This document shows positions 2,448 through 56,428 of a DNA stretch of 64,000 bases, piece after piece. This stretch comes from Shigella phage SH7. The DNA lies in the sequence record KX828711, one strand, 5' to 3'. How positions within the stretch are numbered: the stretch's first letter is position 1; each line of letters starts with the position of its first letter. The translations under genes were made by a program, and so were the position numbers. Below the pieces are notes generated by a model. That model was not told where the DNA came from and searched no databases. It worked only from the letters and a program-made list of their open reading frames with translations.

Positions 2448-4267
2448 TATTGGCTCATCCATTCTTTACGAAGGTCAGCGTTATCTCCCATGAGCATTTC
2501 AAAAAGCTCTTTCCAGTTCTCAGGAAGTTTAACAACATCATATACTGGGTTTTGAATCATCTCACGATATTCAGATTTTTCCAAAGAGCCAAGTCCCTTA
2601 ATATAACGGATGCTATGTTTAGGTAGAGCATCTTTGGCACTCTCATATTCAGCGACTGTATAAAACCATTCTTGTTTTTTACCGACCTGAGCGATGATTA
2701 CAGGAGTTTTGACGAAACGAATTCTTCCTTGTTCAAACAATTCTGGCCAATTACTAAAAAATCCGAGCAGAGAAGGATAAATGCTTCCTAGACCATCATG
2801 GTCAGCATCGGTCATAATAGCGATATTATGATAATTCAAGTTTTCAGCTTTTTCACCAAGAACTAATCCAGTGATTGCGCAAATATCAAACAGTTCTTTG
2901 TTTTTAAGCATATCAGCATATGACATACCCCAACTGTTGAGAACTTTACCGCGCAATGGATAACCACCATGAAGTTCTTTATCACGAACATCAATAAGAT
3001 ATCCGATAGCCGAATCACCCTCGGTTAAGAACAATGTAGTATCAGCATCTTTACCACAAAGATTCGCTTTAATATGTTTATGAACCTTAGCTTTAGAAGC
3101 CTTTTTAGCTGCTTTAGTTTCTGCCGCTTTTTCTGCCGCCAATTTACGAGCCAAGGCAGCTTCAATAATTGGCATCAAAATAGCTTCATTATTTAGAATA
3201 GCACGTGAAATCTTTTTAGCATCAAGCTGAATATGACTACGGATTTCACCAAATGGAGAAGTCAAACGCTCTTTAGTTTGAGAATCAAATCGCATGTTTT
3301 TCATATCACGGACAAACATAACGATAGTCAAACATTCTTTGACACGCGCTTTAGTTACATCAATTTTGAACTTACGTTTGATTTGTGGAATAAGGTCTTC
3401 ACAAATATCATCCATAACGCAGTCAATGTGATGGCCACCATTCTTAGTATGAATGTTATTCACATAAGTTAATTGACGAAATCCATCCGGTGAACGACCA
3501 ACCGCAATAGAACAATTTTCTTGTTCTTGAACAATAGCATGTTCATCATACTGTCGTGCATATTTCTTAAAATTGCCCTGAACCTTTTTACCATTAAAGG
3601 TAAATTGAATATCAGGATAAACAACAGCAAGTGTCTGGAGACGATCTAGTGTAATGTCAAGATAAACTTGGGACAGCTCATTAGTTTCAAATGACATAAA
3701 ATCAGGAATGAAAGTAACACGAGTTCCTTTCCATTTTCCAGGAATATCTTCCCATGATTTATTTTCCATGCCGTTTGAACAACGAACTACAATATTATTT
3801 TGACCGTCGCCAGTTTCACCAACAAACATCACAGAAAAAATGTTTGTCAAACTAGAACCAACACCATTCATACCGCCGGTGACACGTTCTTTATCATCAC
3901 CGAAGTTACCACCTGCTTTTGGAATAGTCCATGCAGCAACAGGACCAGGAATTTCTTCACCGGTAGGTGTTTTAACCATCGCCTGTGGAATACCACGACC
4001 GTTATCTTCAACTGTTACTTGATTGTTTTTAATAGTAACATTAATTTTATTTGCGAATTTAAACTTAGTACGAATACCTTCATCTACTGAGTTATCGATA
4101 ATTTCATCAATAAGCTTAACAAGACCAGGTACATACTGAACACTTTCCCATTTACCAAACAGAAAGCGCTCATGCATTTCATTAGCTGAAGAGCCAATAT
4201 ACATGCCGCTACGCTTTTTGATATGTTCAATATCGCTCAGAATTTTAATTTCATTCTTAATCATCAC
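2447..4267 (-). CDS. 39: DNA topoisomerase II large (ATPase) subunit, unsplit 606-aa form
   Basis: GyrB-like ATPase motifs (EIIDNSVDE, EDNGRGIP, GGMNGVGSS) and TOPRIM-like C-terminus in one ORF. Confidence 0.85.
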   Translation of the reverse strand: MMIKNEIKILSDIEHIKKRSGMYIGSSANEMHERFLFGKWESVQYVPGLVKLIDEIIDNSVDEGIRTKFKFANKINVTIKNNQVTVEDNGRGIPQAMVKTPTGEEIPGPVAAWTIPKAGGNFGDDKERVTGGMNGVGSSLTNIFSVMFVGETGDGQNNIVVRCSNGMENKSWEDIPGKWKGTRVTFIPDFMSFETNELSQVYLDITLDRLQTLAVVYPDIQFTFNGKKVQGNFKKYARQYDEHAIVQEQENCSIAVGRSPDGFRQLTYVNNIHTKNGGHHIDCVMDDICEDLIPQIKRKFKIDVTKARVKECLTIVMFVRDMKNMRFDSQTKERLTSPFGEIRSHIQLDAKKISRAILNNEAILMPIIEAALARKLAAEKAAETKAAKKASKAKVHKHIKANLCGKDADTTLFLTEGDSAIGYLIDVRDKELHGGYPLRGKVLNSWGMSYADMLKNKELFDICAITGLVLGEKAENLNYHNIAIMTDADHDGLGSIYPSLLGFFSNWPELFEQGRIRFVKTPVIIAQVGKKQEWFYTVAEYESAKDALPKHSIRYIKGLGSLEKSEYREMIQNPVYDVVKLPENWKELFEMLMGDNADLRKEWMSQ

Positions 4268-7470: not shown

Positions 7471-8154
7471 TTATCGTTTAGTTGGAAGAGATAGAGGATC
7501 GCATTCTTCCTCTGATGGAGCGTCTTCAAGACCCATAGCATACCGCAAAGCATACTTCATCATCAGGATGTCTTTCGCACAGTCATGAATAGAATCATGC
7601 GCAACGAATCCATCTAAAGTTCCTTTTGGAAGAGGACACGTGGTCATATCACGAACAAGCAGAAGTGCTTCAATTCTGGTACGAATATCACGCTGATTCC
7701 AGAATTTACAAGGTTCTAACTTAAATGTATCAAGCTCATTCTCGGAAACGCCGTTAAGACGTTGAATATCGCGAATGAGATCGACTAAAATTGGAAAATC
7801 AAACGACATTCCACGGCACCAGCCTTGAGATTTCCAAGGATCGATATTATGTGCATTGATGTAATCATTAAATTTTGCAATACCGTCAATAGTGCTTACA
7901 TCTTCATCTGATGGTGCAATATTTTTTCGAGCTTCAGGAGATTGATTCTTCCACCATTCGATAGTGCTTTTAGTAAAAAGACGATGTCCTTTTTGGCTTT
8001 TTAAATCAAATTTGATTTTAATGCCACGTGAAACTAATTCATCAAATGTTTCAACTACTTCTGGATTAGGGTCAAAAGCAATTACAGCTAAATCAATAAC
8101 CGCTGCTTTTTCACCGCTTCCCATTGTTTCAAAATCTATAATAAAATCAAACAT
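7471..8154 (-). CDS. dexA: exonuclease A, DnaQ-like 3'-5' exonuclease
   Basis: 227 aa; N-terminal DFETMG exo motif; size and position match T4 DexA. Confidence 0.7.
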   Translation of the reverse strand: MFDFIIDFETMGSGEKAAVIDLAVIAFDPNPEVVETFDELVSRGIKIKFDLKSQKGHRLFTKSTIEWWKNQSPEARKNIAPSDEDVSTIDGIAKFNDYINAHNIDPWKSQGWCRGMSFDFPILVDLIRDIQRLNGVSENELDTFKLEPCKFWNQRDIRTRIEALLLVRDMTTCPLPKGTLDGFVAHDSIHDCAKDILMMKYALRYAMGLEDAPSEEECDPLSLPTKR

Positions 8155-8411
8155 TAAATTTTCCTTGCTAAATCGCGAATTTGACCTACAGTATAGTCTT
8201 GAATATAAACTTTATTAATAGGCTCATCAATAAATTTTGCCATAGATTCAATATCTTTTTGTATCTCTTCAAGACTGTATACTATCTTTAAAGCTTTTTC
8301 GCGAATAGTAATATTTTCAGGACCCGGATTTTCTTGAATGACAGCTTTAACATTTGTCATAAGAGATTTAAACTGGTACCAACTTAATTCAATCATTAAT
8401 AATCGCCTCAT
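8154..8411 (-). CDS. small helical protein
   Basis: 85-aa ORF; paralogous to the next ORF. Confidence 0.35.
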   Translation of the reverse strand: MRRLLMIELSWYQFKSLMTNVKAVIQENPGPENITIREKALKIVYSLEEIQKDIESMAKFIDEPINKVYIQDYTVGQIRDLARKI

Positions 8412-8649
8412 AAAGATAGCTAATTTCGCCTAAAACGTAATCATTGATTGTAACAGTTTTTACTTCACCACAAAAGAATTCTAACGCAATTAAATCTCGT
8501 TCAATTTCTTCTAATTGAAGCATCAACTTACTAGATTCAATTTTTACAGTTTCACGATTTTTACCATGAGCAATTTCATAAATTTCGCTAACTTTATCCT
8601 GAAGAAGATAAAACTGATCTTTAGTTATTTCCACGAATAGCTTCCTCAA
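8389..8649 (-). CDS. small helical protein (paralog)
   Basis: 86-aa ORF. Confidence 0.35.
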   Translation of the reverse strand: MRKLFVEITKDQFYLLQDKVSEIYEIAHGKNRETVKIESSKLMLQLEEIERDLIALEFFCGEVKTVTINDYVLGEISYLYEAIIND

Positions 8650-8881
8650 ATTTAATTAGTAATTTACAGACACTTTCATCTAGTGTAATTACCGTATCTG
8701 TATTACTGTGATATGATTGTTTTTCAATTCGTTTAATTGCTAATATAGTATCACTTATAAGATAAAGCTTATGAAGGAGCTCAGCTCCTGTTACCATAAC
8801 ATTAAGATTATCTTGCTTATTAGTATGCTTCCTTATACCATCTATTAGACGATTTAAATATTTTGAATTGATGTTAATCAT
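8621..8881 (-). CDS. small hypothetical protein
   Basis: 86-aa ORF. Confidence 0.35.
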   Translation of the reverse strand: MININSKYLNRLIDGIRKHTNKQDNLNVMVTGAELLHKLYLISDTILAIKRIEKQSYHSNTDTVITLDESVCKLLIKFEEAIRGNN

Positions 8882-53140: not shown

Positions 53141-53272
53141 TACATACTCCTCTGAATCATATCAATAATGTTGTTCACCAGATTATAAGTAAACATTGGG
53201 TAATTATATTGAATCACCACATACACAACAAACAAAACTTTCATTCTCTTCTCCTTGGCAGTTGACAAGATT

Positions 53273-53302
53273 ACTATACCATAACCTTGCCAACTTGTAA
53301 AC
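53273..53302 (-). promoter_or_regulatory. early promoter (TTTACA, 17 nt, TATAGT) heading the 53.1-50.6 kb operon
   Basis: sequence. Confidence 0.55.
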
Positions 53303-53467
53303 CATTAAATGACGTTTTCGATAAAATTCTGAAGCTTTGTATGAGCATCAACCATGATTTTCATTTCTTCCTTTGCGAAAGCTGTACCTCTTTCACGAGA
53401 AGAACATTCATAGTCAGAAACTGCATTAGCATATTCTTCAATTAGCTTCATTAAAAACATCTGCTTT

Positions 53468-53662
53468 TCAGTTTTCATTATTCCACCTAATCATTTCAAG
53501 ATATTGAACTAACTTAGCTTTGGATTTATCCAAATCCTTTTTAGCTGCTTCTATACCGTCGTATGAATATCCTTCACAATGCTCAACTGCTAATTGATAT
53601 GAATCTATTTCAATATCACGTGCTAATTTAATGATTTTTTCAAACTGTTCGCGTGTTAGCAT
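53468..53662 (-). CDS. small helical protein (M-x-T/S-R/K-EQ family)
   Basis: 64-aa ORF. Confidence 0.4.
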   Translation of the reverse strand: MLTREQFEKIIKLARDIEIDSYQLAVEHCEGYSYDGIEAAKKDLDKSKAKLVQYLEMIRWNNEN

Positions 53663-53664
53663 AC

Positions 53665-53868
53665 TTAAACTCTCGTATTATGATCGATAATTTCATCAAG
53701 AAACATATCTAACGCTTCTACAGCATTATTAACTTTATCTTCAAGTTCTTCAATACTTTTATTTGCAATGCCTGACGAAAACCAAGCAAAGTCACTAAGT
53801 TCCTCATCTGCTTTACGAATTAAAGCTACCAATTCCTTAATTTTATCCGCTTGTTCGATACTAATCAT
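53665..53868 (-). CDS. small helical protein (same family)
   Basis: start at internal Met [13 protein letters not shown]. Confidence 0.4.
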   Translation of the reverse strand: MISIEQADKIKELVALIRKADEELSDFAWFSSGIANKSIEELEDKVNNAVEALDMFLDEIIDHNTRV

Positions 53869-54056
53869 TATTCCACCACATATGAAAGAGAGAATATTGC
53901 ACACGCCATGTGAGTTGCAACTTCATCACACATATTATAACGTTTCTTAAGAAATTCTACAAGTTCTTCACTAGTAACTTCATCCATGTCGACGAAAAAA
54001 TCACCATTAATGATGACGTAGATATTTCCTTCTTGATTAAGTGCTTCAATTTTCAT
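53868..54056 (-). CDS. small acidic protein
   Basis: start at Met 16 MKIEALNQ; upstream is promoter. Confidence 0.4.
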
Positions 54057-54084
54057 GATGTTCTCCTCTTTATCCGATAGTTGT

Positions 54085-54114
54085 ATAGTACCACAGCTCA
54101 AACGGAAAGTAAAC
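54085..54114 (-). promoter_or_regulatory. early promoter with conserved TGGTACTATACAACTATC core
   Basis: third copy of the conserved cassette. Confidence 0.6.
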
Positions 54115-54129
54115 CGGTAAAATGAAAAA

Positions 54130-54147
54130 AGTCTCCCGAAGGAGACT
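54130..54147 (-). terminator. intrinsic terminator: UUCG hairpin plus U-run
   Basis: agtctcc-cgaa-ggagact then T6. Confidence 0.65.
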
Positions 54148-54151
54148 AATG

Positions 54152-54538
54152 TTATTCGAGGGAAAGAAGATACTTACTCTGGTAAAACATTCCAGTAATA
54201 TCATCTATCGTGCTTTGGATGGCTGGAGGCATTTCTTTATAAATGCTGTTAGATTGGTCTAGTATGTGATCAATCATTTTAATTGTGTCGGTAGGAAGTT
54301 TACTGGCATCTGGAATTGAAGGTGTGTATTTTCTACCAGAATACCCCAAATATTGCTCACCAAATTTATCAATCAAATCTGGCAACTCGGAGAAAATAAA
54401 ATCGTATGCTTTGTGTCTAGCATAACTTTTAGTTTCAAAATGTGCAGAATGAAAATAAGCTTGTGCAGCCATTAATAAACCTAAGTATTCATCTGCCTTT
54501 GAAGGTTTTCCACTTTGTGAAAAGTCGCTGAATTTCAT
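54152..54538 (-). CDS. hypothetical protein (rI.-1 position)
   Basis: 128-aa ORF. Confidence 0.45.
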
Positions 54539-54828
54539 TCAGTCTCCAATTTAATGTTCATAATTCTAGCGTATGATTGTGCCATCTCCGCGCCTCGTTC
54601 TATACATTCAAAATCAGAAGAGCACGGGTCATTTTTATAGGTCGTTCTCATAAAACTATAGAATTGTTCAGACGATTCTACGCTTTTATTTTCAAAAAGC
54701 ATATAAACGTGCCTAATACCAGATTCCATAAATTTATCAAAATGAGGATCGACATTCGCTTCAATCGATGGAGATAAAACAAATGACAATCCTAGCATGG
54801 CAAATAGTGCCGTTGCTTTTAAGGCCAT
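54535..54828 (-). CDS. rI: lysis-inhibition regulator RI (antiholin)
   Basis: 97 aa; N-terminal signal-anchor segment; size and position match T4 RI. Confidence 0.7.
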   Translation of the reverse strand: MALKATALFAMLGLSFVLSPSIEANVDPHFDKFMESGIRHVYMLFENKSVESSEQFYSFMRTTYKNDPCSSDFECIERGAEMAQSYARIMNIKLETE

Positions 54829-54840
54829 AAAGGCCTCCTA

Positions 54841-55053
54841 TCATTTTTGTCCTGTATTTACTTTATGCCGATGCACGGCCTTAACTTTATCAAGGTATTT
54901 TTCAAAATTTCGCAATCTAGTATAGTCTGCCGGAGATTGGTTGAGTGATACTTCTCGACGCAAAGCTGAAATAACATTTCCAACTTCCCTACGAATTTCA
55001 TCTAATTGAAGCACAGTAAGATTGCGAAGTTGCTTTTCAGTTAATTGTAACAT
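54841..55053 (-). CDS. small hypothetical protein (rI.1 position)
   Basis: 70-aa ORF. Confidence 0.4.
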
Positions 55054-55095
55054 ATATACCCCTTTAGTTAGATAAACCTATTTATAACTTTTGCA

Positions 55096-55677
55096 CTAAC
55101 CGAGCTTTTTAGTTAATTCATTCCAATGTTTTCTACACAAAGAAACATAAATTTCATCGCCAATACAGATTTGATTACCCTCTTTAACTGGTGTTCCATC
55201 TTCCATTAATCGAGCTGTCATAATCGCTTTTTTACCACAATGACAAACTGCCTTTAGTTCAATAAGTTTATCTGCAATCGCTAAAAGTTCTTTAGAACCT
55301 TCAAACAATTTTCCAGCGAAATCAGTCCTTAATCCATAAGCCATAACAGGAACATTATATGTATCAACAATTCGGCTCAATTGATGCACCTGTTCAGTTT
55401 TTAAAAACTGAGCTTCATCTACAAATACGCAATGAATATCTTTTTGTGCTTCAGCCCATTTATAGAACTCGAAAATATCCATATCATCTGTAATAATATT
55501 CGCTTCCTGCTTAATTCCAATGCGAGAAACGACTTCACAGACAGAATCGCGAGTATCAATAGCAGGCTTAAGAACTAATACACTCATTCCACGTTCTTTA
55601 TAATTATGTGCAGCAGTCAAAAGAGAAGCAGATTTTCCAGCATTCATTGCTGCATAAGTAAAAATTAAACTCGCCAT
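55096..55677 (-). CDS. tk: thymidine kinase
   Basis: 193 aa; Walker A NAGKSA; C-terminal Zn motif CHCG...C. Confidence 0.85.
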   Translation of the reverse strand: MASLIFTYAAMNAGKSASLLTAAHNYKERGMSVLVLKPAIDTRDSVCEVVSRIGIKQEANIITDDMDIFEFYKWAEAQKDIHCVFVDEAQFLKTEQVHQLSRIVDTYNVPVMAYGLRTDFAGKLFEGSKELLAIADKLIELKAVCHCGKKAIMTARLMEDGTPVKEGNQICIGDEIYVSLCRKHWNELTKKLG

Positions 55678-55678
55678 C

Positions 55679-55867
55679 TTAGTCCTTAGTTAAATTTTCT
55701 AAATATGTTTCTAAATCATTTTCAACTTTATCGATAGATTTTACTAATTCGTAATATGTTTCGGCATCTCCATATTCAGAAGATATTTCAAAAGACAAAT
55801 CCTTTTCTAAACTAATAATTTCACCAACTAAAAATAATATTTCGTTCTTTTGTTCGCGAGTAATCAT
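55679..55867 (-). CDS. small helical protein (M-x-T/S-R/K-EQ family)
   Basis: 62-aa ORF. Confidence 0.4.
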   Translation of the reverse strand: MITREQKNEILFLVGEIISLEKDLSFEISSEYGDAETYYELVKSIDKVENDLETYLENLTKD

Positions 55868-56049
55868 AAGGAATTTATATAATTAATAAGTTCTTGTTCT
55901 TTATTATCGAATTCTTTAGAAAGTTCTTCGTACTCGTTTGCACTAAAAGGACCGCATTCATTACAAACTTTTTCCAATTCACTATTTTTATCCATAACTT
56001 CGTGGATAAGAGAAAAGAGTTTGTCTTTTTGTTCTTTGCTTAGGCTCAT
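55864..56049 (-). CDS. small helical protein (same family)
   Basis: 61-aa ORF. Confidence 0.4.
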   Translation of the reverse strand: MSLSKEQKDKLFSLIHEVMDKNSELEKVCNECGPFSANEYEELSKEFDNKEQELINYINSL

Positions 56050-56219
56050 ATATTAATTTCCAGAAGTTTTAAAATAATTCGCTTTTGCTTAAATATTTCC
56101 ACAGTTAAATGATCAGTATCTTTTTGACCAATTCCAATGGCAAAACCTTTATTAACAGCGAGTTCAATTAAATTATCAAGTTCACGTAACACTTCATATT
56201 GTAACTCAGAACTATTCAT
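56046..56219 (-). CDS. 57-aa hypothetical protein
   Basis: own translation MNSSELQYEVLRELDNLIEL...; ATGA overlaps at both ends. Confidence 0.35.
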   Translation of the reverse strand: MNSSELQYEVLRELDNLIELAVNKGFAIGIGQKDTDHLTVEIFKQKRIILKLLEINI

Positions 56220-56428
56220 TTCGGTTTACCTTCTTTAACGAAATCTGGATAAGGATAAAATCCCGAATAAAATCCTTCACCTTTATGATTGATGCATCCT
56301 TTATTAGAACAATAGCACCAATAATCGAAATCACAAACCATTTCATCGTTGCATAAAGCAAAAACAACCGGCCATTTACACTTTTCACAGTGGGCATTTT
56401 TAAGAATACTAGTTTGGCTCATAACCAT
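56216..56428 (-). CDS. Cys-rich small protein
   Basis: 70-aa ORF with 9 Cys (CEKCKW...CNDEMVCDFDYWCYCSNKGC). Confidence 0.4.
   Translation of the reverse strand: MVMSQTSILKNAHCEKCKWPVVFALCNDEMVCDFDYWCYCSNKGCINHKGEGFYSGFYPYPDFVKEGKPK

What the first reader, a model, noticed from the sequence alone, without database searches (positions are those of the whole stretch)
53468..56049. Dispersed family of about-60-aa helical proteins with a shared N-terminal M-x-T/S-R/K-EQ signature
At least four small ORFs (53468..53662 MLTREQFEKI..., 53665..53868 [13 protein letters not shown]..., 55679..55867 MITREQKNEILFL..., 55864..56049 MSLSKEQKDKLFSL...) share start motif, length and acidic helical character. 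Two more possible members lie at 8154..8649. Repeated small single-helix-pair proteins in early regions are typical of host-takeover factors that bind host enzymes, and the multiplicity suggests diversification against different targets.
Basis: seen in the sequence. Interest (0 to 1): 0.4.

Follow-up and report, generated by a model that had tools for sequence, protein, structure and literature searches.

The report
Known T4 small helical-hairpin gene family

Summary
The window is a Tequatrovirus, 99.5% identical to Shigella phage JK38 over this region. The four ORFs are orthologues of T4 mobD.3, mobD.4, tk.1 and tk.2. All four, plus an overlooked fifth (53305-53478, an intact mobD.2a), match Pfam DUF7438 at 52-69 bits against a cut-off of 25. 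Each is still retrieved when its own subfamily is left out of the profile. AlphaFold2 gives tk.2 a confident two-helix hairpin with no specific structural match. The two suggested extra members at 8154-8649 belong to a different family (PF26837) with a different predicted fold. They share only an N-terminal helix-start motif with DUF7438.

Published T4 data show early RNA for all four T4 orthologues, early protein for mobD.3 and mobD.4, and middle protein for tk.1 and tk.2. Orthologues are under purifying selection (dN/dS 0.07-0.46). Copy number varies among close relatives. The family is small (38 clusters among 1.84 billion representatives). It also occurs in N4-like and Kuravirus coliphages.

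No function has been tested. The likeliest role is a set of small, paralogue-specific binders of host proteins. The family is already catalogued and interest is modest. One unverified lead is that two growth-inhibitory proteins in a 2026 Mosigvirus screen may be family members.

The parts
55864..56049 (-). tk.2 orthologue, 61 aa, DUF7438 member. Its start overlaps the stop of the upstream 57-aa ORF (ATGA).
   Evidence: Pfam PF24219 at 69.2 bits and phrog_653 at E 4e-25. It is identical to T4 Tk.2 at 59 of 61 residues. AlphaFold2 predicts a hairpin with helices 5-30 and 37-60, pLDDT 89.9.
55679..55867 (-). tk.1 orthologue, 62 aa, DUF7438 member. It overlaps tk.2 by 4 nt (ATGA) and ends 1 nt before tk.
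   Evidence: Pfam at 51.7 bits and phrog_653 at E 8e-22. It is identical to T4 Tk.1 at 61 of 62 residues. pI is 4.18 and net charge -10.
53665..53868 (-). mobD.4 orthologue, 67 aa, the long-loop allele. The true start is the ATG at 53868, not the upstream GTG at 53904. It overlaps the mobD.5 stop by 1 nt (TAATG).
   Evidence: Pfam at 56.7 bits. The family alignment places Met1 at 53868. T4 carries a 60-aa short-loop allele.
53468..53662 (-). mobD.3 orthologue, 64 aa, DUF7438 member.
   Evidence: Pfam at 64.1 bits. It is identical to T4 MobD.3 at 62 of 64 residues.
53305..53478 (-).
   Evidence: Pfam at 56.5 bits and phrog_2758 at E 6e-36. The leave-out profile gives E 3e-4. The T4 copy is split by a frameshift.
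54130..54147 (-). Terminator-like hairpin followed by a T run, just after rI.-1. It separates the tk.2-tk.1-tk-rI unit from the mobD.5-mobD.2a unit. This is context, not part of the family.
   Evidence: Found by the consensus scan. The same site is annotated as a terminator in phage G2133.
54085..54114 (-). Candidate T4-type early promoter for the mobD.5-mobD.4-mobD.3-mobD.2a unit: GTTTAC, an 18-nt spacer, then TGgTACTAT. A GGAG lies in the mobD.5 ribosome-binding site at 54063-54066. Inferred only.
   Evidence: Read directly from the sequence and compared with the T4 early-promoter consensus from my own knowledge. The simple scan did not report it.

Best explanation
The five genes are paralogues of one small, lineage-restricted phage family (Pfam DUF7438; PHROGs 653, 2758 and 4859). 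They are the T4 genes mobD.2a, mobD.3, mobD.4, tk.1 and tk.2.

Shown or strongly supported: each encodes an acidic protein of about 60 residues. tk.2 is predicted to fold as an antiparallel two-helix hairpin, and the others match the same full-length profile. The family-wide conserved positions are the heptad core, a helix-start motif (M-I/L-T/S-x-E-Q) and a loop glycine. The genes sit in two tightly packed, overlapping arrays on either side of tk-rI. Their T4 orthologues are transcribed early and detected as proteins. They are under purifying selection. At least mobD.2a and mobD.3 are dispensable in the laboratory.

Inferred: they act as stoichiometric protein binders, probably by packing their exposed hydrophobic stripe into a helical bundle, either with themselves or with a partner. 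Their targets are host (Enterobacteriaceae) proteins, either takeover targets or defence proteins. Each paralogue presents its own surface, so it would have its own target.
For: Family membership is shown by the Pfam scores, the leave-one-subfamily-out retrieval and the finding of exactly five hits in the six-frame window.

The fold is a hairpin with helices 5-30 and 37-60, pLDDT 89.9 and pTM 0.70. Low-entropy columns 10, 13/14, 17, 20, 24 and 44, 47, 51, 54/55, 58 follow an a/d heptad spacing. Other columns differ between paralogues but vary little within each subfamily sampled.

Expression comes from the T4 supplement tables, where mobD.3 and mobD.4 are early RNA and early protein, and tk.1 and tk.2 are early RNA and middle protein (PMC9697503). 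PmobD.3 and Ptk.3 are listed among T4 middle promoters (PMC2988021).

dN/dS is 0.07-0.46, against 0.02 for tk.

Dispensability and plasticity: a T4 nrdC.11-mobD.3 deletion is viable (PMC9825161). T4's own mobD.2a is frameshifted, tk.1 is absent from RB3, REP2, ECO4, G2133 and KRT47, and T6, RB3, ECO4 and G2133 carry a sixth copy.

A host-directed role is suggested by Pfam-level members in three unrelated groups of coliphages. These are T4-like Tevenvirinae, the N4-like phage IME11 (51 bits, in the early left-end region) and the Kuravirus phiEc_1 (51.3 bits). In T4-like relatives the neighbouring genes include the Pfam Acb2_Tad1_hairpin family, which is named after counter-defence proteins, as well as a Macro-domain gene and RegB.
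Against: No member has any experimental function, interaction or phenotype in the literature I could search. The hairpin fold is generic: the best Foldseek E-value against the PDB is 0.4, and all BFVD matches are uncharacterised phage proteins. NCBIfam and PADLOC gave nothing. Oligomerisation could not be modelled with these tools. The gene-neighbourhood argument is weak in T4-like genomes, where synteny is conserved anyway. Low variation within subfamilies partly reflects the short divergence of the sampled orthologues. Horizontal spread among coliphages is also compatible with a role that involves no host target.
Confidence: 0.4

Rival explanations
1. The proteins serve the phage itself. Adjacent, translationally coupled paralogues (tk.2 with tk.1; mobD.4, mobD.3 and mobD.2a) would assemble with each other into hetero-oligomeric helical bundles. 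These would act as adaptors or chaperones for phage proteins, for example in the nucleotide-metabolism or lysis-timing genes they flank.
For: Start and stop codons overlap or nearly touch (ATGA, TAATG, an 11-nt overlap), which favours coupled, roughly equal synthesis. Natural tk.2/tk.1 chimeras (P0045 from phage UFV-AREG1, and P0076) join helix 1 of one paralogue to helix 2 of the other. This shows that the cores are compatible. The position next to tk is kept in Tequatrovirus, Mosigvirus, Gelderlandvirus, Dhakavirus and Gaprivervirus.
Against: Many Tequatroviruses have only one gene upstream of tk, so a tk.2-tk.1 heterodimer cannot be obligatory. The IME11 and phiEc_1 loci examined showed a single detectable copy and no tk-rI block. 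Karamvirus, Krischvirus, Winklervirus and Bragavirus keep tk-rI, yet no member was detected within about 8-9 kb of tk.
Confidence: 0.2
2. The proteins form Rop-like nucleic-acid-binding four-helix bundles that regulate phage or host RNA or DNA.
For: They have the same size class and hairpin architecture as Rop; this comparison is from my own knowledge. Some Foldseek neighbours are DNA-binding or dimeric hairpin regulators (CsoR, FrmR, PadR), but all at E of 1 or weaker.
Against: All five are acidic, with net charge -2 to -10 and pI 4.2-5.3, and have no conserved basic surface. No significant structural or sequence match to any nucleic-acid-binding family was found.
Confidence: 0.07
3. The genes are largely functionless duplicated filler in a hyperplastic region and persist by drift and recombination.
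For: Copy number varies between close relatives, T4 mobD.2a is frameshifted, and chimeras exist. Part of the cluster can be deleted without loss of viability (PMC9825161).
Against: dN/dS is well below 1 for all five. The proteins are detected in T4 infection. Orthologues are kept across five Tevenvirinae genera at low DNA identity, and members occur in two other phage groups.
Confidence: 0.05

Closest known systems
Pfam PF24219 (DUF7438); PHROGs 653, 2758 and 4859; T4 MobD.2a, MobD.3, MobD.4, Tk.1 and Tk.2
   Same: This is the family itself. All five ORFs pass the Pfam cut-off over the whole 57-position model and are 90-98% identical to the T4 proteins over aligned residues.
   Different: Nothing fundamental differs. 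Compared with T4, this phage has an intact mobD.2a and the long-loop mobD.4 allele. The family has no assigned function. The labels attached to members in public records are not supported by any evidence I found, and they disagree with one another.
Pfam PF26837: the T4-like dexA.1/dexA.2-type proteins, here the ORFs at 8154-8411 and 8389-8649, with a more distant third copy at 8621-8881
   Same: These are also small, tandemly repeated early-region proteins. They have a similar helix-start motif (ITKDQF... against ITxEQ...).
   Different: They are 85-86 aa with a predicted strand-helix-helix-strand-helix fold. hhalign probability against DUF7438 is 10% over 25 columns. They give no DUF7438 hit.
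WXG100 (EsxA/EsxB-type) helical hairpins (comparison from my own knowledge, not tested by search)
   Same: They are small helix-turn-helix hairpins encoded by adjacent paralogous genes that pair into four-helix bundles. DUF7438 also has a conserved loop glycine.
   Different: DUF7438 proteins are about 60 aa rather than about 100 aa. They lack the W-x-G motif and any secretion context, no sequence or Foldseek match was seen, and pairing is unproven.
Characterised small early phage proteins that bind host proteins, such as T4 AsiA, T7 Gp0.6 and T5 Hdi (the last two as summarised in bioRxiv 10.64898/2026.09.14.751387)
   Same: They are small, made early, dispensable in the laboratory, and act by stoichiometric binding.
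   Different: There is no sequence or fold relationship, and no target is known for any DUF7438 member.

Membership tests
Pfam DUF7438 (PF24219) | Score at or above the curated gathering cut-off (25 bits) over the full 57-position model, for the four reported ORFs and 53305-53478 | tested here: met
   Scores are 64.1, 56.7, 51.7, 69.2 and 56.5 bits, covering model positions 1-57 or 1-56. Leave-one-subfamily-out profiles confirm each member.
Pfam DUF7438 (PF24219) | The same criterion applied to the suggested extra members at 8154-8411 and 8389-8649 | tested here: not met
   There is no Pfam hit at E up to 1 and no hit with my own profiles at E up to 10. hhalign probability is 10%.
Pfam DUF7438 (PF24219) | Single-domain protein of about 60 aa built as two helices joined by a short loop | tested here: met
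   The AlphaFold2 model of tk.2 has helices 5-30 and 37-60 at pLDDT 89.9. The heptad pattern of conserved columns agrees. Only tk.2 was modelled.
PHROG 653 | Profile match over the whole protein | tested here: met
   E-values are 2e-25, 1e-21, 8e-22 and 4e-25 for the four reported ORFs. The fifth goes to phrog_2758 (E 6e-36) with a weak phrog_653 hit at E 0.02.
Pfam PF26837 (for the ORFs at 8154-8649) | Membership of the family carried by their close homologues | tested here: met
   Homologues up to 99% identical to 8154-8411, and homologues of 8389-8649, carry a precomputed PF26837 match. My local Pfam copy lacks this model. Homologues of the third copy, 8621-8881, carry no Pfam match (P0216, P0219).
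Host-takeover factor (functional class) | Expression in the early phase of infection | tested here: met
   This rests on orthology only. T4 mobD.3 and mobD.4 show early RNA and early protein; tk.1 and tk.2 show early RNA and middle protein (PMC9697503 supplement).
Host-takeover factor (functional class) | Direct binding to a host protein, or growth inhibition on expression | not testable with these tools
   No published data were found. There is an unverified lead in the AV110 screen.
WXG100 / Rop-like four-helix-bundle hairpins | W-x-G loop motif (WXG100), or a significant sequence or structure match to Rop or WXG100 | tested here: not met
   The alignment shows no W-x-G. No such Pfam hit was found. 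The best Foldseek E-value against the PDB is 0.4, to designed hairpins and unrelated proteins.

The most novel reading that the evidence does not exclude
DUF7438 proteins could be a modular hairpin toolkit. Translationally coupled neighbours would pair into homo- or heteromeric four-helix bundles whose variable outer faces inhibit different Enterobacteriaceae proteins, either takeover targets or defence proteins. The module would move horizontally between unrelated coliphages (T4-like, N4-like, Kuravirus). Two of the six growth-inhibitory early proteins in the 2026 Mosigvirus AV110 screen (Gp204 and Gp208) would be members.
Probability: 0.12. Interest if true: 0.55.

Novelty: already known. 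Interest (0 to 1): 0.25.

Why it matters
T4 is the best-studied virulent phage, yet five of its early-region genes, four of them with products detected during infection, still have no function. Showing that they form one family with a shared core and paralogue-specific surfaces reduces five unknowns to one tractable question: what do the hairpins bind? It also suggests deleting all five together in knock-out experiments, because paralogues may mask each other's phenotypes. The practical value here is mostly in cleaning up annotation. Several names attached to members in public records are unfounded, and T4's own mobD.2a is a frameshifted copy of a gene that is intact in most relatives examined.

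Tried and rejected
1. Structure search. Foldseek of the tk.2 model against the PDB gave a best E of 0.4. Against BFVD it returned only uncharacterised phage proteins. The hairpin is too generic to be informative.

2. Sequence search against the PDB. A profile hit to an 'anti-CRISPR protein' (23aa_A, E 0.0024) fell apart into two out-of-order fragments with individual E-values of 0.59 and 9.2. I rejected it as compositional.

3. NCBIfam and PADLOC gave nothing meaningful.

4. Neighbouring small ORFs as hidden members. The 57-aa ORF at 56046-56219 gave hhalign probability 0.7%. It, rI.1 and mobD.5 gave no hit with my own profiles, and the first two gave no DUF7438 Pfam hit.

5. Context of the most divergent members. 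Three scans of viral contigs and one of metagenome contigs found nothing. tblastn of P0121 and P0117 against the phage collection found nothing.

6. Literature. 'DUF7438', the gene names, and T4 toxicity or overexpression terms gave no functional study of any member.

7. Metal binding through the CxxC in the tk.2 loop. I rejected this because the cysteines are absent from the RB3-type allele and from the other paralogues.

8. Resolving the AV110 gene numbering. The supplement is not held and the cited companion paper was not found.
Full report
IDENTITY OF THE REGION

Bases 53200-56300 of the window are 99.5% identical to Shigella phage JK38. They match 466 phage records over at least 80% of their length, nearly all of them Tequatroviruses. 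Aligned to the T4 map, the region reads as follows on the minus strand: tk.3, two extra small genes, tk.2, tk.1, tk, rI.1, rI, rI.-1, a terminator, then mobD.5, mobD.4, mobD.3, mobD.2a and mobD.1.

The four reported ORFs are the orthologues of these T4 genes:
- 53468-53662 is mobD.3.
- 53665-53868 is mobD.4.
- 55679-55867 is tk.1.
- 55864-56049 is tk.2.

Identity to the T4 proteins is 62/64 for mobD.3, 61/62 for tk.1 and 59/61 for tk.2. For mobD.4 it is 54 of 60 aligned residues, with a 7-residue longer loop in this phage.

CHECK OF THE OBSERVATION

The ORFs exist as described. They are acidic, with pI 4.2-5.0 and net charge -3 to -10.

Pairwise similarity is weak. Identity is 25-34%, and the best BLASTP E-values are 1.5e-4 for mobD.3 against tk.1 and 0.002 for mobD.4 against tk.2. 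A reader working by eye could therefore fairly doubt the relationship.

Profiles settle the question:
- All four match Pfam PF24219 (DUF7438) end to end, at 51.7-69.2 bits against a gathering cut-off of 25.
- All four match PHROG 653 at E 1e-21 to 2e-25.
- To avoid circularity I built profiles from 108 family sequences with one subfamily removed at a time and searched all 1194 six-frame segments of the window. The removed member was always the best non-training hit: tk.2 at 4.5e-12, tk.1 at 6.8e-12, mobD.4 at 4.5e-12 and mobD.3 at 1.2e-8, with background at 0.08 or weaker.

TWO CORRECTIONS

First, there is a fifth member. ORF 53305-53478 (57 aa, MKTEKQMFLMKLIEE...) scores 56.5 bits on DUF7438 and E 3e-4 in the leave-out test. 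It is the intact form of T4 mobD.2a. A six-frame profile scan finds exactly five members in the 64-kb window. The next best segment scores E 0.6 with one profile and 0.2 with the other.

Second, the 'possible members' at 8154-8649 are a different family:
- They lie between dda and dexA and are part of a tandem trio at 8154-8411, 8389-8649 and 8621-8881.
- They give no DUF7438 signal.
- Near-identical homologues carry a different Pfam family, PF26837.
- With a 15-sequence alignment, hhalign against DUF7438 reaches only 10% probability, over 25 N-terminal columns.
- Their AlphaFold2 model (pLDDT 91.3) is strand-helix-helix-strand-helix, not a two-helix hairpin.

What the two families share is the helix-start motif (I-T-x-E/D-Q-f-x-x-L). 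I read this as a common way to begin an amphipathic helix rather than as evidence of common descent. In the window a strict form of the motif occurs at 7 of 657 candidate starts, 4 of which are family members.

ANATOMY OF THE PROTEINS

AlphaFold2, run on a 14-sequence alignment, gives tk.2 a confident hairpin: helix 5-30, loop 31-36, helix 37-60, with pLDDT 89.9 and pTM 0.70. Only tk.2 was modelled.

Column analysis of 108 members shows three classes of family-wide conserved position:
- Met1, Ile/Leu2, Thr/Ser3, Glu5 and Gln6, which form the helix start.
- A heptad-spaced hydrophobic core at columns 10, 13/14, 17, 20, 24 and 44, 47, 51, 54/55, 58.
- A loop glycine at column 31.

The remaining columns, which should face outwards, differ between paralogues but vary little within each subfamily sampled. 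The doubled hydrophobic positions (13/14 and 54/55) widen the apolar stripe. That is what one would expect if the hairpin packs against another hairpin or a partner helix. This is inference, because multimers could not be modelled here.

The fold is too generic to point to a function. The best Foldseek E-value against the PDB is 0.4, to designed hairpins, ZraP, CsoR/FrmR and histidine-kinase DHp helices. BFVD returns only uncharacterised phage proteins. A profile hit to an anti-CRISPR chain (E 0.0024) consists of two out-of-order fragments and was discarded. NCBIfam and PADLOC gave nothing.

GENE ORGANISATION AND EXPRESSION

The genes are packed head to tail with overlapping or abutting stops and starts:
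- ATGA at the junction of the 57-aa ORF with tk.2, and again at tk.2/tk.1.
- TAATG at mobD.5/mobD.4.
- A 2-nt gap at mobD.4/mobD.3.
- An 11-nt overlap at mobD.3/mobD.2a.

A terminator-like hairpin at 54130-54147 follows rI.-1. The same site is annotated as a terminator in phage G2133. Downstream lies a plausible T4-type early promoter (GTTTAC, 18 nt, TGgTACTAT, at 54085-54114), and a GGAG sits in the mobD.5 ribosome-binding site. Both features are inferred from the sequence alone.

For T4 itself, published time-resolved RNA and protein data class mobD.3 and mobD.4 as early RNA and early protein, and tk.1 and tk.2 as early RNA and middle protein. MobD.2a protein was not detected (PMC9697503 supplement). 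That last result fits the frameshift in T4 mobD.2a. PmobD.3 and Ptk.3 are listed among T4 middle promoters (PMC2988021).

EVOLUTION AND DISTRIBUTION

Across ten Tevenvirinae loci, nine of them Tequatrovirus, dN/dS for the five genes is 0.07-0.46. The highest value, for tk.1, rests on few substitutions. tk gives 0.02 and rI 0.09. The genes are therefore real and constrained coding genes, but less constrained than the enzyme next to them.

The clusters are plastic:
- RB3, REP2, ECO4, G2133 and KRT47 carry a single, divergent tk.2 allele and no tk.1.
- mobD.4 exists as long-loop (67 aa) and short-loop (60 aa) alleles.
- T4's mobD.2a is frameshifted.
- T6, RB3, ECO4 and G2133 carry a sixth member, which scores 57.8 bits on DUF7438.

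Natural tk.2/tk.1 chimeras join helix 1 of one paralogue to helix 2 of the other (P0045 from phage UFV-AREG1, and P0076).

A viable T4 deletion spans nrdC.11 to mobD.3 (PMC9825161).

The family is small. An exhaustive profile search of 1.84 billion representative proteins found 38 clusters at E up to 0.001, three of which are long proteins that are probably coiled-coil noise.

Members were found in these groups:
- Tequatrovirus: 4-6 copies in the loci examined.
- Mosigvirus: 3-4 copies.
- Gelderlandvirus: 2, plus one weak hit.
- Dhakavirus: 3 copies.
- Gaprivervirus: 3 copies.

Source names in the homologue search also list Edwardsiella phage PEi20 and Citrobacter phage Moon.

No member was detected within about 8-9 kb of tk in the Karamvirus, Krischvirus, Winklervirus, Bragavirus, Klebsiella phage Clarke_MM3 or Aeromonas phage loci examined.

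Outside the T4-like phages, Pfam-level members occur in two groups:
- The N4-like phage IME11, at 51 bits, in the early left-end region next to the gp1 homologue.
- The Kuravirus phiEc_1, at 51.3 bits.

Three unrelated virion types that share enterobacterial hosts is the best, though indirect, argument that the target belongs to the host rather than to the phage.

MECHANISM

No experiment addresses any member.

My preferred reading, at about 0.4, is a set of small stoichiometric binders of host proteins, one target per paralogue, acting in takeover or counter-defence. The rivals are:
- Self-assembling adaptors for phage proteins, at 0.2. The coupled gene pairs and the chimeras support this. 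Phages with a single copy argue against it.
- Rop-like nucleic-acid binders, at 0.07. The acidic charge argues against this.
- Drifting filler, at 0.05. Purifying selection and detected protein argue against this.

A LEAD THAT COULD NOT BE CLOSED

A 2026 preprint (bioRxiv 10.64898/2026.09.14.751387) expressed 45 early proteins of Mosigvirus AV110 in E. coli and found six to be growth-inhibitory. Among them were Gp204 ('described elsewhere') and Gp208 (mild and strain-specific).

AV110 has three DUF7438 genes, which are GenBank CDS numbers 199, 201 and 205 (WPK34044, WPK34046 and WPK34050). The paper's Gp94 and Gp95 (MotA) correspond to GenBank CDS 91 and 92, an offset of +3.

If that offset holds across the genome, Gp204 and Gp208 are family members. 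Numbering by GenBank order can be excluded, because it would make them tk and tk.4, which the paper's selection rule omits. However, the same +3 offset would make Gp214 the well-known RegB, which should also have been excluded, so the mapping remains uncertain. The supplement is not held.

VERDICT

The structural and timing parts of the interpretation hold, while the host-target part is plausible but untested. The family is already catalogued (Pfam DUF7438, PHROG 653) in a phage nearly identical to sequenced ones, so novelty is 'already known' and interest is modest.

Noticed in passing
window 53305-53478; L003 (T4) 3997-4178: T4's annotated 38-aa mobD.2a is a frameshifted remnant. The two halves of the 57-aa protein lie in different frames in T4, whereas the gene is intact in this window and in T6, T2, slur07, RB3, REP2, ECO4, G2133 and KRT47. 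This fits the absence of detected MobD.2a protein in published T4 proteomics.
   Followed up: partly
window 8154-8881 (minus strand, between dda and dexA): Three tandem ORFs of 85-86 aa are paralogues of each other. The first two share 30% identity (BLASTP E 1e-10), and all three give weak hits to phrog_5263. The first two match the two halves of the 160-position phrog_1700 profile, so they appear to be fused in some phages. Homologues of the first two carry PF26837. The predicted fold is strand-helix-helix-strand-helix (pLDDT 91) with no PDB match. Public names for homologues ('dextranase', 'exonuclease', 'tail sheath stabilizer') look unfounded.
   Followed up: partly
L003 (T4) mobD.4; L002 (slur07); P0006, P0058, P0078, P0093: Several records name these 60-67 aa proteins 'molybdopterin-guanine dinucleotide biosynthesis protein MobD'. 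This looks like a collision with the T4 gene name mobD (a homing endonuclease) and not a functional assignment. The sixth paralogue (phrog_4859) is variously labelled 'helicase loader' and 'kilA anti-repressor', with no supporting evidence found.
   Followed up: partly
P0045 (Escherichia phage UFV-AREG1) and P0076, relative to window 55679-56049: Single genes occur whose N-terminal helix is tk.2 and whose C-terminal helix is tk.1. They are recombinants between the adjacent paralogues with the crossover in or near the loop.
   Followed up: no
window 56046-56219 and 56216-56422 (minus strand): Two small genes lie between tk.2 and tk.3 that T4 lacks. One is a 57-aa ORF (phrog_3452, no Pfam match, not a DUF7438 member by hhalign). 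The other is a 68-aa cysteine-rich protein whose counterpart in phage phiE142 carries PF23895 (Phage_zn_bind).
   Followed up: partly
window 53665-53868 compared with L003, L015, L016 and L020: mobD.4 occurs as two loop-length alleles among Tequatroviruses: 67 aa (...ELSDFAWFSSGIANKSIEE...) and 60-63 aa (...ERINFALSGIEE...). The two helices are nearly unchanged between them.
   Followed up: no
whole window, both strands: The MotA-box core TGCTTNA occurs 94 times, against 58 +/- 7.6 expected from shuffles. None of 100 shuffles reached 94. Many MotA-dependent middle promoters would be one explanation, but the excess is spread over both strands and was not analysed by position.
   Followed up: no
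L021 (phiE142) 1248-1514; L023 3589-3861: In T4-like relatives, a gene carrying the Pfam Acb2_Tad1_hairpin family lies roughly 2.2-2.7 kb from the tk-proximal DUF7438 genes, in the same gene block as a Macro-domain gene and RegB. This block therefore mixes counter-defence and takeover functions. The corresponding genes in this window were not examined.
   Followed up: no
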